Shown: one piece after another, positions 14,715-22,679 of the stretch
Numbering within the stretch: the first letter of the stretch is position 1
Layout of the letters: each line of letters starts with the position of its first letter
Assembly (NCBI GenBank): GCA_964016885.1
Contig: OZ024740.1
Coordinates: 165,788,001-165,852,000 of the forward strand
DNA length: 64,000 nucleotides
Direction: 5' to 3'
From: Eledone cirrhosa
Lineage: Eukaryota
Made by a program: the position numbers and the translations under genes
Notes under the pieces: generated by a model
Databases searched by the model: none
Told to the model about the DNA's origin: nothing
Seen by the model: the letters and a program-made list of their open reading frames with translations, nothing else

Positions 14715-14932
14715 ATTAGAAAATAGAATAGCTTTCACCGTATTTTTCGACTAAATAAATTTTAGTCTGATAATGGGGTTTAGAACCCACAGATAAATGG
14801 AAAAAGATGAGTATTGACGTACATTTACGTCAATACTCATCTTTTTCCATTTATCTGAGGGTTCTAAACCCCATTATCAGACTAAAATTTATTTAGTCGA
14901 AAAATACGGTGAAAGCTATTCTAATTTCTAAT
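14715..14932. repeat. Near-perfect palindrome: 107-bp arms, 4-nt loop, adjacent to (TA)n
   Basis: 14715-14821 is the reverse complement of 14826-14932 with two mismatches seen; loop CATT. Confidence 0.95.
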
Positions 14933-16639
14933 TTCACACCTGCTCACTGTTTCAAAACATACTTACTTGTCATATATATATAAAGACAGGTTTAAGTGTC
15001 TTAGTGTTATTTATGAACATGAAAAATAACTTCATAACTTTAAATGCGAAAATTATTTAAAATATGAAGCATTATCTAGCACCACTCTTCGGCCTGGGAA
15101 GCAGGAAAGACAACTTTGAACATTTTTATTCTTGACCGCCATCAGCTGAAATATAACCTTCATCAATATTTGCTTTGTATTTATTTCATTAATCAGAGAA
15201 GCTTGAAAGGCAAAGTCGACTCCAGTGGGAATAGATCTCTGAAATAAAAAGAGAATTATATACCACAAGATATTTAGTTTGTCTCTCAATCAATCCACTG
15301 GCGCTGTTTTTTTTTTTGTTTTTGTTTTTTTTCTTCACAATTATATTGCAACAATATCTATATGCTTTCGCACATGCCTACATATATGTATGTATGTGTG
15401 TGAATGTCACCTCTGATCGAGTAGACCTATGCCCAAAAGCGTCCAAACACTGACCGTCTTATTTATATAACTTCCACTAAATTGTCAGATATGTTCTTCA
15501 CATTTAAAGACGTTGTTCAATATCAGTAAATGTAAATGATAATTAGATAATCATTTTTCACTTTATTTTGTTCTATACACCAGTTGGTTTTAAACATGTC
15601 AACAACAATTTCAGCCAGTAATAAACAAATGTTTAACTAGCCAAATATTTTCAGACAGCAGCGAATTCCTCTTCTGATCAAATTGCTGCTCCTACGTCTT
15701 TTCCTTCTTTTCTTTCATATATATTTTTTAATTTTATGCCACTCAATCACCAATAATTTTCCTGTTTATTTTTCTCTCTTAATTTTTATCAACTTTAATA
15801 AAAACAAAATACTCAAAAAAAAGAGACTTCTAGAAGCAAAAGTATTTGCTTCACACATGCTCGACTCTGATGATCAAATTTCCTCACTTTACGAATATTT
15901 TATGTTCAACTGGAGTCGACAGTTTGCGCTTCTTCTTGACAATTGTAGTAGTAGTAGTAGTGAGAAATTTCAGTCTCGAACGAAATGCTGTTAGTTCAAA
16001 TACTATAAAGAATGCAAATATAGTTCTTTATTGATAATTTGTGTGCGTTTATTTGGCATGCTTTTCTGTCTTCCATTTGTCCTACCAACCCTTCCTTCGT
16101 TTTATATTTCGTATTTAAAGTCATTATTACTCTTTCTTTACTTTATCTCCCCTCACTACATATTTGTATCCGATTCGCTCATTCTTTTTAGAAAATTTCA
16201 TTTTTCAAGCATAGATTGATTAATGAATCATTTCAGACATTCATAATATTTCAGAAAAAGAGGGAATATTTTCATATATATATATATATATTTATATATA
16301 TATACATATATATATATATAGATATATATATATATACATTGATACATACACACACACACATATATATATATATATATATATGTGTGTATGTATATATACA
16401 TTAGCTTATTAGCTTACTCAGTCTGACTTAATTAGGACGCTTTGCTACATAAGTATCTATAAGTCTCTTTTTTTTAATTCTAAATTTTTGAATCCAGAAA
16501 AAAATATAAACAGTTTTAAATTTTCCAGTCTGCACAATATATGTGCCCATCTCCCAATAATCTGAGAACCGATTTCTCAAGTTATTTTCCATAGTCAGAC
16601 ATATCTTTTTAACTCCTGATAAATCGTGCGACGGTTTCG

Positions 16640-16870
16640 GGGTTATGCGTTCAACTGTACAAGCTCATGAATTACTATATGGCACTCTATGTAACGTGAA
16701 CGTTTACTATTCATCAGTCATGTGTTCCCTTGACGTAATTCCCAGGCAGAATTCATGTGACACGATATGCGAGGAGCTTCTACACAATTTCCGTCTACAT
16801 ACGGGCAGATCGAACCTGGTAGCTCTGGATTGTTAAACCAATTTCTTAACCATTTAGCTATGCCTGCATC
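16640..16870 (-). mobile_element. Degenerate SINE/interspersed repeat (family A)
   Basis: TTTCCGTCTAC is the reverse complement of GTAGACGGAAA in the 11607 copy; tRNA-like head at TTCTTAACCATTTAGCTATGCCTGC. Confidence 0.55.
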
Positions 16871-17145
16871 CACATATAACTTCAATTTGTAAACATACTT
16901 CTGTATAGCAAACTATATATATATATATATATATATATATATATATATATATATATATATATATATATATATATATATATATATATATATATATATATAT
17001 ATATATATATATATAGTGTACGTTATTCAGTAATTTTGTTCGTTAGTAGAGGTGTCACCAATATGAGCACCAGACCCCAAATCATAGTTTTATTTTCATT
17101 AGTCCACACGTTCGTTATGCAGATCGATACTGGTGTCATGTATAT

Positions 17146-17474
17146 TAGAATCAATAAAGACCTCGAGCTAATTATCTATGAAACCTATGTAATATTCGAT
17201 ATGCAATAAAAACATTTTAAAGCTAAATTTCGTTATTTCATACATTACACACACACACACACACACACACACACACACACACACACACACACACACACAC
17301 ACACACACACACACACACACACACACACACACAATATGTATATAGATATATATATAAGTATGTGTGTGTGTGTGTGTAATGTATGAAATAACGAAATTTA
17401 GCTTTAAAATGTTTTTATTGCATATCGAATATTACATATGTTTCACAGATAATTAGCTCGAGGTCTTTGATTCT
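17146..17474. repeat. Inverted repeat with ~100-bp arms around a (CA)n/(TA)n/(TG)n spacer
   Basis: 17146-17246 (TAGAATCAATAAAGACCTCGAG...TTTCATACATT) is the reverse complement of 17378-17474, with a few mismatches and a small indel. Confidence 0.93.
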
Positions 17475-19209: not shown

Positions 19210-19539
19210 GATTAATATTAAGAGAAATTAATAAGAAGAAGAGTTAAAATTTGAGATTTGAAAATTGAAGTATAAAATTCATTGTGGGATTTCATAGTAG
19301 TTTTCATCTTGGTAGCAGCTCGTTGACTGCTTCTGGTAGTGAATGAGAAGTTATATGGGGGTGTGGGTTATTTTATAAAGGTAAAATTTAGCAATGGCCA
19401 GATGGCCAGCTGCTGGTCAGTGAGGGGGTGGAAGCAATATACATACATATATCTTCCTATGCTCGGTAGGAGAGGGGAGATTGATAGAAAGGGATTTAGT
19501 GCACTTACACCTATATATACACACATACCTTCATCCACA

Positions 19540-20160
19540 CATACATACATACATATACATATACATACACATATATATATATATATATATATATATATAT
19601 ATATATATACACATATACACACATACATACACACACATACATATACATACACACATACACACACACATATATGCACATACACACACATATATATATATAT
19701 ACACACACACATATATATACATACACATACATCCAGATACACACATACATACACACACACACACCCATATATATATATATATGTGTACATACATATATAT
19801 ACACACATATACATACACATATATATACACACACCCACACATACATACACACACACATATATATACATACACACATACAAACACACACACACACACATAT
19901 ATACACATACACACACATATATATACACACACACACATCTATATATACACATACGCATACATCCAGATACACACATACACACACACACACACAATACATA
20001 CATCCACATGCACACACACACACACACACACACACACACACACACACACACACACACACACACACACACACACACACACACACACACACACATACACACA
20101 CATACACCCACACACAGAGAAATGGCCTCCAAATATATATATATACATACATACACATAT
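19540..20160. repeat. Compound (CA)n/(TA)n/(CATA)n microsatellite
   Basis: Read directly. Confidence 0.95.
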
Positions 20161-20579
20161 ATTGTTTCCATAATATAAGAAGTTAGGGCAGTGAAATTAA
20201 AATACTGATCATTCTGATCACATTGAGTTCTTCATGTAGATTGGGCCCCGCAACCGACAGTGGTGAATTCTGTGTGCGCATATATATATAGATATATGTG
20301 TGTGCACGTGCAGGGTTTAACATGGATGTGTTGGTCACACAAAGGCATGGTCTGTCAACGAATAAACCTGATTCTACAGAATTGGTCTCTGGCCATTGCT
20401 AAATTTGACCTTTATAAAATAACCCACACCCCCAAATAACTTCCATTCACTACCAGAAGCAGTCAACGAGCTGCTACCAAGATGAAAACTACTATGAAAT
20501 CCCACAATGAATTTTATACTTGAATTTTCAAATCTCAAATTTTAACCCTTCTTATTATTAATTTCTCTTAATATTAATC

Positions 20580-20627
20580 AACATTTGAAAAGATGGCTTT
20601 TGCAGACCCATCGAAACCGGTCATTTT
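20580..20627 (+). ncRNA. Minimal type I hammerhead ribozyme motif (U3-A8 variant)
   Basis: TTGAAAA 20585-20591; stem II GATGG/CCATC; GAAAC 20613-20617; palindromic ACCGGT stem III; GTC triplet 20620-20622; stem I AACAT/ATTTT with one mismatch. Confidence 0.62.
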
Positions 20628-22679
20628 TTATACCCTTTATTATTTCCTTACCTTATAAAATTATATGTTTTTTCACAAAAAAGTATTCTGTCTCTTATAT
20701 ATTCCATGTGCCATTACCAACCTCAATTTTCTCTCTCTCTCTCTCTCTCTCTCTCTCTCTCTCTCTCTATATATATATATATATATATATATATATATAT
20801 ATATATATATATATGGAGGGGTATGTATATAAATATACGTATTTATTGTCTGCATATATACATATGTGTGATTATGCGCGCGCGTAAGAAAGAGGTAGAA
20901 AGAGACAGAGAAAATATAAAATGGGAGATAGAGACAGGGAAAGAAGGAAAATAAATAATCACCAAGGAAGGAGATGAACGAAACCCACTATAGATTAGTA
21001 ATTAGATACAAGAAAGAACAAATAATAGTAAAAAAGCAAGGCCCTTTGATCAACAGAGGAATCTGAACGTATGAAATTAGCATTGTCTGCACCACATCAT
21101 GATATAGGATGGAGACAATGATGATGGTGTGGTAATCTTATAGATGATGTAAAGTATCTCAAAGCTAACAAATCTGTCGTGTCGCGTAAATGAAACAAAT
21201 ATGAGAGAAGTAGGAGCAAAATCAACAAATGTAATAAAACAAACAAAGGAGCAGCCTATGCGCGGTCACACAATCTATTAGAAATAGCAGCTAATTCATA
21301 TTACTATTTCAAATTATCATTTTTATCTTATCTTTTGAATTATGCCGTTTTGTTACAAAGAGTAACATAGCGGATGATGAAAACTGCTTGGCAAAACGAC
21401 AGGATAGTCCCAACTTGAAGCCCTTGTAGGAATGAAAGAACAACAACAATAAATAATTCAATATATATATATATATATATAATATTTGTATAATGTTTGT
21501 CTTTGTTTATGCAATATATGTGTAAAACTGGCATCATTCTTGCTGAAATATCTGGTAAACTTACGCATAACATTTATTGCGATTGTGAAATACATTATAC
21601 CTTATGTGATTTTCTTAATCATTTTTTAATGTGCTAACACTACCGCTATTTCTACGTCGAGTATACTTCATATTACTCATATTCGCTTAAGGAAAGGATT
21701 ATGTCGTACTGGAAAACTCCGCAAACATAACCTACATTGTAAATTCTTAATTCATGAATAATTTACACTTTTAATTAGTAATAAAAATTACTTCTTCTCT
21801 TCTCATTCCGTGTTACCGATTTCTGGTGTTACTCTATTTAGACATAGAGTCGGGATGACGTAGAAAGAGAGGGCCACTTAAAAAGCTGAGAATTTGATAG
21901 GTTTCTCAGTGAAATTAAAATGTCTTCAAACTGGAACCGGAACTGGGTCACATAATTAGATTAGACCACATCTCTCTAGGAGTTTACCCTCTCTCTCTCT
22001 CTCTCTCTCTCTCTCTCTCTCTCTCTCTCTCTCTCTCTCTCTCTCTCTCTATATATATATATATATATATATATATATATATATATTACTTTAGATGTTC
22101 GGATAATTAAAACTCAAAATACATCCGTATTTATAGATGCTTATGTATGTATGAATAAATCAAGGAAATAGAGAAGAGAAATATTTGGGTTCCTCTCTCA
22201 ATAAGCACCTCTTGTCTTTCTGTGGTACTTGATGTATGATAATTTAGAAAAATCCAAAATGGTGGGGGTGGGGTGGGGGAAATAAGAGAGTAACGTTAGG
22301 AGAAATGTTGGGTTTAAGCAAAAGCAGAAAAATATGAAGAAATATTCGTCCCAAAAAACTTGGTAAAGGGGAAAAAAGGAAACGATCACAATGACTAGGA
22401 ATAGTAATAAAAATAGCTAATAATATTAAAAGCGGTTATTTGTCTTTTGACAATATGATGTATGGAAGAAGACCAAGCAAAAAGAATGCAGTTATTTGAC
22501 AAGCTAGAAATAGCAGCAAAATTTCTTCCGAGCGGAAATAGTTATTTCTATTTCGAAAATGTGTTCAGAGTATTTCAGGATAAAGAAGTAGAGAGTGAAA
22601 AAAAGAGTGGAGAGAAAGAAACGTGAAAGAGAATTATATATAAATAGATGTACTCACACACACACACACGTGTGTGTAT

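What the first reader, a model, noticed from the sequence alone, without database searches (positions are those of the whole stretch)
14715..20734. Cluster of four fold-back modules within 6 kb, all embedded in microsatellites
Seen: inverted repeats at 14715-14932, 17146-17474, 18917-19005 and 19055-20734. Their sequences do not obviously align, but they share an architecture: one arm longer than the other, ends at (TA)n/(CA)n/(CT)n, no coding capacity, and in three cases a stem followed directly by GAAA. Known: Penelope-like elements leave inverted, partially truncated pseudo-LTRs and carry hammerheads in them. Inference: a set of non-autonomous, microsatellite-targeted, ribozyme-bearing retroelements, and the best candidate here for an undescribed system.
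Basis: partly seen in the sequence, partly recalled or inferred. Interest (0 to 1): 0.75.

Follow-up and report, generated by a model that had tools for sequence, protein, structure and literature searches.

The report
Four Penelope retroelement insertion stubs
These four hairpin-shaped inserts are short end-pieces of four unrelated, abundant mobile repeats: two are joined to Penelope-type retrotransposon genes elsewhere in the genome and the other two were likely pasted in by the same kind of enzyme, so this is an ordinary neighbourhood in this genome, whose one unusual piece is a repeat that carries a tRNA look-alike and no self-cutting RNA motif.

Summary
The four inverted repeats are real, but they are not one system and the cluster is not special: 45 such fold-backs lie in 360 kb of arbitrarily placed stretches of this genome, and the window holds 5 where 8 are expected. 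Each module is a different multi-copy family. M4 is the 3' end of a Neptune-type Penelope-like element (PLE); another copy has an open 1138-codon RT + GIY-YIG frame. M3 is the 3' end of a Hydra-type PLE. So these two are truncated copies, not non-autonomous families. Only M4 keeps a whole hammerhead motif in the window (published U3-A8 variant). M3's is cut off, M2's has decayed, and M1 has none. M2's quoted repeat is likely a later local duplication; its true PLE-type footprint starts at 17011. M1 is a 260-nt head-to-tail, non-coding unit whose longer copies hold a tRNA cloverleaf. Head-to-head pairs join one tailed and one tail-less end in 76 of 88 classifiable cases, which fits two primings on RNA. 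Inverted pLTRs, tails, (TA)n targets and hammerheads are published PLE features. This scan noted the same pattern, and an M1-like family, before on other DNA of this genome.

The parts
14683..14716 (.). (AT)17 tract at the left end of M1
14715..14824 (-). M1 tail-less arm (positions 2-110 of the 260-nt unit)
   Evidence: 95% to the unit taken from L140
14822..14978 (+). M1 tailed arm (unit positions 1-156, tail about 40 nt, then a short TA run); cut at its 5' side within the last bases of the tRNA-like part
16914..17015 (.). (TA)51 tract at the true left end of M2
17011..17071 (-).
   Evidence: 84% to L231, E 2e-12
17102..17256 (+). M2 tail-less body with a decayed hammerhead (core position 17112-17118 matches 1-2 of the conserved letters only)
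17247..17333 (.). (AC)43 tract after the M2 body
17368..17478 (-). Second copy of the M2 body's 3' part plus some (AC)n, tail-to-tail; likely a later local inverted duplication
   Evidence: 7 shared non-majority letters against 3 + 3 arm-specific ones in 103 columns; depth like unique DNA at 97% likeness
18842..18946 (-). M3 tailed arm (about 78-nt tail plus 30 nt), 3' end of a Hydra-type PLE
18945..19005 (+). M3 tail-less arm: 3' half of a hammerhead (stem II 3' strand, GAAA, stem III, cleavage triplet, stem I 3' strand); the core and 5' strands are cut off
19018..20387 (-). M4 tailed arm: about 1370 nt of the 3' UTR of a Neptune-type PLE, with a 36-nt tail (19018-19054) and the family's own microsatellite-rich segment (19513-20116)
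19162..19209 (-). Predicted minimal type I hammerhead, U3-A8 core, in the M4 tailed arm
20388..20734 (+). M4 tail-less arm, 5'-truncated, joined through 5 shared letters
20580..20627 (+). Predicted minimal type I hammerhead, U3-A8 core, palindromic helix III; predicted cut after 20622
20730..20814 (.). (TC)19(TA)23 tract at the right end of M4

Best explanation
The four modules are separate inserts of four unrelated repeat families lying at (TA)n-type microsatellites; M3 and M4 are 5'-truncated 3' ends of Penelope-like retrotransposons, and M1 and M2 were likely inserted by enzymes of the same class. Shown: family membership, the link of M4 and M3 to RT/GIY-YIG coding sequence, two fixed 3' ends per family, variable 5' ends, and head-to-head pairs that mostly join one tailed and one tail-less arm. 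Inferred: the element's protein cuts both strands in a TA tract; each DNA end primes reverse transcription on element RNA, one at the outer and one at the inner of two start sites; both cDNAs stop early and are joined at a few shared letters, which leaves a lopsided fold-back. The RNA copied was likely not cut by its hammerhead, because both M4 arms and the M3 tail-less arm run on past the predicted cut site. Each insert keeps TA runs at its ends, which likely attracts the next one (M3 and M4 share one tract). M1 is likely a non-coding passenger, its tRNA-like part possibly a polymerase III promoter (untested). M2's third piece is likely a later local duplication.
For: [quoted passage not shown] M3: about 1 kb upstream lies an endonuclease with CxCX5C, CxxC and CxH and no CCHH, the Hydra features of PMC8557442. 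Tailed + tail-less pairs: M4 9 of 9, M3 28 of 33, M1 29 of 34, M2 10 of 12; 17 of 105 events could not be classed. Simple fold-back copying of one cDNA needs one arm nested in the other: in 11 of 34 tailed/tail-less events the tail-less arm reaches further 5' (12 nested, 11 equal), and the window's M3 and original M2 are not nested. Two adjacent RT start sites, cleavage of both strands and a predicted dimer are reported for the anole PLE (PMC11167929). Arms of one insert are closer to each other than to the median other copy in M3 25 of 28, M1 31 of 40, M4 6 of 9, M2 6 of 11.
Against: No parent ORF was found for M1 or M2: protein hits lay in 8 of 60 and 1 of 60 loci, about the background of 11 of 36 ten-kb stretches, and the five M1 cases looked at were unrelated neighbours. 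M1 shows no similarity to the M3 or M4 parents. PMC3846280 saw no cross-mobilisation between two PLE types in a rotifer and read inverted junctions as self-priming on an antisense template; 23 of my 34 events are compatible with such fold-back copying. 12 of 88 pairs break the tailed/tail-less rule. The partner arm was the single closest sequence in only 12 of 88 comparisons. The loci are the best 20-30 hits of each search, not a random sample. The lowest-energy folds of the M4 motif and of the window's M3 subfamily are not the hammerhead fold. No empty site was seen.
Confidence: 0.8

Rival explanations
1. One priming, then fold-back: a single cDNA anneals to itself at a short match and is copied back, giving the inverted arm (self-priming model).
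For: Junction palindromes or short shared letters in M1, M3, M4; 11 of 34 events have arms starting at the same point and 12 are nested; proposed in PMC3846280.
Against: 11 of 34 events, and the window's own M3 and original M2, have arms that are not nested. It does not by itself explain the tailed/tail-less pairing.
Confidence: 0.2
2. The four are miniature inverted-repeat DNA transposons (TIR families) that prefer TA.
For: Inverted arms with TA-rich flanks; 20 of the top 30 M3 hits share the window's junction exactly.
Against: That search selected for the junction. Short-read contigs show many other M3 junctions (14 listed). Many copies have one arm only or arms of very different length. Longer copies run into RT/GIY-YIG genes, not transposases.
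Confidence: 0.02
3. M1 is an ordinary tRNA-derived SINE moved by a LINE, and its tandem and inverted copies arose afterwards.
For: Cloverleaf called in 8 of 9 M1 loci; Rfam tRNA up to 51 bits against a cut-off of 29; no PLE parent found.
Against: The tRNA part sits inside a head-to-tail unit (tail runs into the next unit in 26 of 30 and 3 of 28 loci of two searches). Copies end at fixed inner sites without a poly(A), and pair tailed with tail-less ends in 29 of 34 cases, as the proven PLE families do.
Confidence: 0.15
4. The cluster is a functional or co-evolved unit (one system of four modules).
For: Four inserts in 6 kb; Poisson 0.008 for a fixed stretch.
Against: Families differ in age (best other copies about 88% for M2, 97-99% for the rest) and clade. 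1 of 36 arbitrary stretches is as dense, and the window as a whole is below average.
Confidence: 0.02
5. The fold-backs are long-read or assembly artefacts.
For: They sit in microsatellites; no short-read contig listed spans a whole module.
Against: Arms differ by 2-5%, stop at family-specific ends and recur at many loci; short-read contigs of a public run cover both M2 arms at single-copy depth and hold many M3 inversion joints.
Confidence: 0.01

Closest known systems
Insertions of endonuclease-bearing PLEs with inverted pLTR and one-sided tail (PMC8557442, passages and section 11; PMC3846280, passages)
   Same: 5' truncation, an inverted 5'-truncated copy, a tail at one end only, partial tandems, (TA)n targets, hammerhead in the pLTR.
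   Different: Tails of M3 and M2 are about 75-80 nt, not 30-40. The papers call the tail optional or 'often at one end'; here the pairing is counted (76 of 88).
Neptune-type PLE (for M4)
   Same: Single frame, RT then C-terminal GIY-YIG with CCHH, DKG, GxKF, CX2-5CxxC linker.
   Different: No tree was built, so Neptune against Nematis rests on the linker motif. The 3' UTR is long (about 1.4 kb) and holds 600 nt of microsatellite.
Hydra clade PLE (for M3)
   Same: CxCX5C linker, no CCHH, CxxC and CxH around the E and N, (TA)n insertion.
   Different: The paper calls Hydra hammerheads canonical; here the core is U3-A8 in a sister subfamily and C3 opposite A8 in the window's subfamily, with a long helix II. 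The N-terminal RWK and DKT motifs were not reached.
Minimal type I hammerheads of metazoan PLEs (PMC4209133, parts 1-2 of 4 read)
   Same: Short helix I, palindromic helix III, U3-A8 core variant, pairs of motifs on opposite strands 100-700 bp apart, most motifs in truncated PLEs.
   Different: Helix II of M2 and M3 is far longer than 7-8 bp.
Animal non-LTR retrozymes and Schistosoma Sm-alpha (PMC7229834 passages; 10.64898/2026.07.22.740005 part 1 of 5 and passages; PMC6765202 passages) (for M1)
   Same: Non-coding head-to-tail unit of 170-400 nt, proposed PLE dependence; Sm-alpha pairs a polymerase III promoter with tandem units.
   Different: M1 has no hammerhead motif and carries a whole cloverleaf; it shows inverted pairs with a tail.
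tRNA-derived SINEs (for M1)
   Same: tRNA-like region with A and B boxes, non-coding, high copy number.
   Different: Circularly permuted tandem unit, a T5 run about 20 nt after the tRNA part, no LINE-like or poly(A) end seen, PLE-type footprint. The octopus SINEs of Ohshima and Okada 1994 (seen only as a reference entry) could not be compared.

Membership tests
EN+ PLE, Neptune type (M4 family) | One ORF with RT and C-terminal GIY-YIG | tested here: met
   L125, 1138 codons open; Pfam RVT_1 28.8 bits (cut-off 29.6), GIY-YIG 25.8 bits (cut-off 22.6)
EN+ PLE, Neptune type (M4 family) | CCHH in the endonuclease, CX2-5CxxC linker, DKG and GxKF motifs | tested here: met
   Read from the translation against PMC8557442
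EN+ PLE, Neptune type (M4 family) | pLTR from partial tandem, inverted copy, tail on one end | tested here: met
   L121-L125 maps; 9 of 9 pairs
EN+ PLE, Neptune type (M4 family) | Placement in the RT phylogeny | not tested
   No reference PLE proteins were fetched
Hydra clade PLE (M3 family) | CxCX5C linker, no CCHH, CxxC and CxH motifs | tested here: met
   L158, L173, L186-L188 translations; Pfam gave no hit for this endonuclease
Hydra clade PLE (M3 family) | RWK and DKT motifs, whole single ORF | tested here: inconclusive
   The four extended copies are 5'-truncated; only the end of the RT was reached
Hydra clade PLE (M3 family) | Canonical hammerhead in the pLTR | tested here: inconclusive
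   Fold present; core U3-A8 in 27 of 30 sister copies (read by eye) and C3/A8 in 27 of 29 copies of the window's subfamily; cut off in the window
Minimal type I hammerhead (M4) | Core, helix II, GAAA, palindromic helix III, NUH, helix I | tested here: met
   Both window arms; 35 of 36 pattern matches keep core and GAAA, 33 also the palindrome and triplet; helix I is weak (4 of 5 pairs)
Minimal type I hammerhead (M4) | Self-cleavage | not testable with these tools
   No RNA run listed; needs a bench assay
Minimal type I hammerhead (M2 family) | Structure kept through compensatory change | tested here: met
   20 rows from two subfamilies: 91% of cells paired, 9 of 29 pairs with two-sided change, slid controls 27-43%; few independent events. 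Window copy decayed
PLE (M2 family) | Linked RT/GIY-YIG ORF | tested here: inconclusive
   1 of 60 M2 loci and 1 of 20 sister loci have a hit, at background level; shared upstream sequence reaches only about 260 nt in the copies fetched
Non-LTR retrozyme (M1) | Non-coding head-to-tail unit of 170-400 nt | tested here: met
   260-nt unit; 26 of 30 and 3 of 28 loci run tail into next unit
Non-LTR retrozyme (M1) | Type I hammerhead in each unit | tested here: not met
   No motif in the window's M1; G of GAAA in 13 of 64 arms; Rfam gave no ribozyme in L146 or L151, though it also missed the M2-M4 motifs
tRNA-derived SINE (M1) | tRNA-related region with A and B boxes | tested here: met
   ARAGORN 8 of 9 loci, Rfam RF00005 32-51 bits; absent from the window copy
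tRNA-derived SINE (M1) | tRNA part at the 5' head, and a 3' end of poly(A), simple repeat or LINE type with target duplication | tested here: not met
   tRNA part is internal to a tandem unit; 3' ends fall at fixed inner sites
tRNA-derived SINE (M1) | Transcription by polymerase III | not testable with these tools
   No RNA data were laid on M1
MITE / TIR transposon | Fixed terminal inverted repeats at both ends, transposase partner | tested here: not met
   Arms vary in length and are often single; parents are retroelements

The most novel reading that the evidence does not exclude
M1 is a tRNA-cloverleaf, ribozyme-free passenger of Penelope-like retrotransposons, the PLE counterpart of a SINE, with roughly tens of thousands of copies; and the near-strict pairing of one tailed with one tail-less arm across four unrelated families records a dimeric PLE enzyme priming reverse transcription from both ends of a double-strand cut.
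Probability: 0.5. Interest if true: 0.6.

Novelty: new member of a known kind. Interest (0 to 1): 0.33.

Why it matters
As a cluster it matters little: fold-backs of this kind occur about once per 8 kb here. Two side results have value. First, how PLEs make inverted pLTRs and tails is an open question (PMC8557442, PMC11167929); this genome offers very many young footprints, and the tailed/tail-less pairing plus non-nested arms make a two-ended priming model directly countable and testable in the published in vitro system. Second, M1 would extend PLE passengers beyond hammerhead retrozymes to a tRNA-bearing unit. My searches listed no paper on such a unit or on octopus hammerheads beyond PMC8557442, but I read only listings for most hits, and repeat libraries (Repbase, Dfam, paper supplements) were not checked and may already hold these families.

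Tried and rejected
Rfam on 13000-23000 gave no family over its cut-off and no hammerhead, only microsatellite-driven microRNA matches; Rfam also missed the motifs in L158, L068, L085 and L036, so its blank says little. PDB sequence search with the M4 protein: 0 hits. Pfam on the Hydra-type pieces: nothing meaningful. RNA search with the M4 arm: no RNA holder listed. Public contigs X1-X4 match the unique flanks and gave no empty site; their depths are not copy numbers. My first end-classing script was fragile and was replaced; still held the 30 M3 loci selected for the window's own structure, which one search dropped along with loci overlapping the window. Alignments A2 and A3 each held one wrongly chosen row (L273, L085); the pair count used A4, which left out L085 and L236. 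I considered U3-A8 as a new core and dropped it: it is in PMC4209133. I considered a hammerhead on M1's other strand by eye and found no GAAA or helix III. I considered priming by short matches to the TA target, since family ends fall beside inner TA letters; I did not test it, and PMC11167929 reports start sites not homologous to the cut DNA. PMC5785218 was not held. No supplements were opened; those of PMC8557442 list Hydra families and may bear on M3.

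
Full report
Observation. The four inverted repeats are in the sequence at about the quoted places, and shuffled DNA gives none (0 in 120 kb). I call them M1 to M4. The window lies in a 3.0-Gb genome, G000, whose largest contigs are 350-440 Mb; that pattern and the microsatellite load recall an octopus (recall, not tested).

Each module is its own multi-copy family. Searches of G000 gave 1118, 254, 955 and 1278 first-look candidates for M1, M2, M3 and M4, of which 40 each were scored. 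The best other copies are 97-99% alike for M1, M3 and M4 and about 88% for M2. In 36 stretches of 10 kb taken at round coordinates, M3 had 6 insertion sites, M1 3, M2 and M4 none, which scales very roughly to 50,000 and 25,000 for M3 and M1. The families share no real similarity.

The cluster is ordinary. The same 360 kb hold 45 fold-backs, 31 of them beside a TA run. The window holds 5 in 64 kb against 8 expected. Four within 6.1 kb occurred in 1 of 36 stretches, three or more in 5 of 36. M3 and M4 share one TA tract, which fits repeated use of the same target.

M4. Copies extended to 5-9 kb show the window's sequence directly behind an ORF. L125 has an open frame of 1138 codons with GxKF, DKG, the GxAMG and YLDD motifs, a CX4CxxC linker and a GIY-YIG domain with CCHH, and a direct copy of the end region before the ORF. 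These are the features of Neptune-type PLEs in PMC8557442 (passages). In the window the minus strand carries about 1370 nt of 3' UTR with a 36-nt tail; the 600-nt microsatellite stretch is part of the family's UTR, not a spacer. The plus strand carries a 347-nt tail-less copy, joined at 5 shared letters. Both arms hold a minimal type I hammerhead motif with a U3-A8 core and palindromic helix III, the only two such motifs my descriptor found in the whole window. The motif is kept in 33 of 36 pattern matches in 30 loci, but these copies are too young to show covariation, and its lowest-energy fold is not the hammerhead. The U3-A8 core and motif pairs on opposite strands are described in PMC4209133 (parts 1-2 of 4).

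M3. Longer copies extend 1 kb upstream to an endonuclease with CxCX5C, CxxC and CxH and no CCHH, and to the end of an RT: the Hydra clade (PMC8557442 section 11), which inserts into (TA)n. The family has a hammerhead with a long helix II; the core is U3-A8 in 27 of 30 copies of a sister subfamily, whose lowest-energy fold is the three-way junction (z -2.6), and C3 opposite A8 in 27 of 29 copies of the window's subfamily. The window copy starts inside helix II, so it has GAAA but no core. 20 of the top 30 hits share its junction; the search selected for this, copies with other diagnostic letters share it too (L110, L120), and short-read contigs show many other joints, so the junction is a hot spot and not a fixed element.

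M2. This is an old family with a canonical core (15 of 62 pattern matches, many others cut off upstream). Against a sister family, 9 of 29 predicted pairs change on both sides, among them the palindrome of helix III, with 91% of cells paired and 27-43% in slid controls; with two subfamilies this is a handful of events. In the window the core has decayed. The PLE-type footprint is a tail-only arm at 17011-17071 (minus) after (TA)51, joined to a tail-less body at 17102-17256. It shares 7 non-majority letters with the body against 3 and 3 of their own in 103 columns, and both arms have single-copy depth at 97% likeness. It is likely a later local duplication; copying from an already diverged source is not excluded. 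No parent ORF was reached.

M1. Longer copies show a 260-nt head-to-tail unit with a full cloverleaf, called by ARAGORN in 8 of 9 loci and by Rfam at up to 51 bits. The window copy is cut at the end of that part. The 'stem then GAAA' has its G in 13 of 64 arms and no core before it, so M1 is not a hammerhead element. No ORF is attached. Its footprint, however, is that of the proven PLE families.

Mechanism. All four families have two preferred 3' ends beside microsatellites and variable 5' ends (41 of 41 M4 arms, 178 of 208 M3, 97 of 142 M1 including arms inside tandems, 41 of 74 M2). After dropping loci selected for the window's own structure, head-to-head pairs join a tailed and a tail-less end in 76 of 88 classifiable events; 17 more could not be classed. 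Independent choice gives at most half. A cDNA that folds back can only make an arm nested in the first; 11 of 34 events are not nested, nor are the window's M3 and original M2. I infer two primings, one from each end of a double-strand cut, at the two start sites. This agrees with the anole PLE, which cuts both strands, starts at two adjacent sites and is predicted to be a dimer (PMC11167929, parts 1-2 of 4). The self-priming reading of PMC3846280 (passages) remains possible for the other 23 events. The two-ended idea was suggested to me by earlier notes of this scan; the counts are my own. The loci are top hits, and a few are segmental duplicates of each other.

Comparison and novelty. Inverted pLTRs, one-sided tails, (TA)n targets and hammerheads are published PLE traits, and non-coding hammerhead repeats are already proposed as PLE passengers (PMC7229834, passages; 10.64898/2026.07.22.740005, part 1 of 5 and passages). 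PMC13282606 (passages) lists Penelope families in an octopus and does not mention hammerheads in its main text. M2-M4 are new members of known kinds. M1 fails the retrozyme test (no hammerhead) and the SINE layout test, and is the one piece that may be a new variant; my searches listed nothing on it, with the limits given above. Earlier notes of this scan describe the same footprint and an M1-like family at other places in this genome; a look-up by sequence and one by nearby place returned nothing.

Verdict. Real features, PLE origin shown for two modules and likely for two, not one system and not an unusual cluster. Interest 0.33; the M1 passenger and two-ended priming would deserve about 0.6 if shown.

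Noticed in passing
window 34624-39979 (minus): An L1/Tx1-like LINE by eye: a 499-codon first frame and an endonuclease + RT frame in two pieces (585 and 519 codons). No family search was run on it.
   Followed up: partly
window 60762-60828: A fifth, small fold-back beside a TA tract.
   Followed up: no
window 33025-33191, 46665-46779, 58187-58325, 63766-63999: Four pieces of another dispersed repeat, 77-96% alike.
   Followed up: no
window 3511-10048: A (TA)n array of 6.5 kb.
   Followed up: no
window about 16800-16870 (minus): A tRNA-like stretch seen by eye, probably a common SINE.
   Followed up: no
window about 17690-17735: A short decayed piece like the M2 sister family; a contig's loose end at 17716 runs on into that family.
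   Followed up: no
L144 about 1690-1720; L054 about 2170-2190: Direct joins between families with no TA run between: M1 to M3 in L144 and M3 tail to M4 in L054. Possible template switches across families.
   Followed up: no
M3 family, about 137-141 nt from the tailed end: A hot spot of 5' truncation and inversion joints at the base of the inner hairpin of helix II.
   Followed up: partly
L190-L225: 21 hammerhead-type motifs of many families in 360 kb against 0, 0 and 1 in three shuffles: about one per 17 kb.
   Followed up: partly
M1 family, e.g. L146 1184-1256 (minus): The cloverleaf is called Ser with anticodon GGA in most copies and lacks the long variable arm of serine tRNAs (the latter from recall), so it is unlikely to be a working tRNA.
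   Followed up: partly
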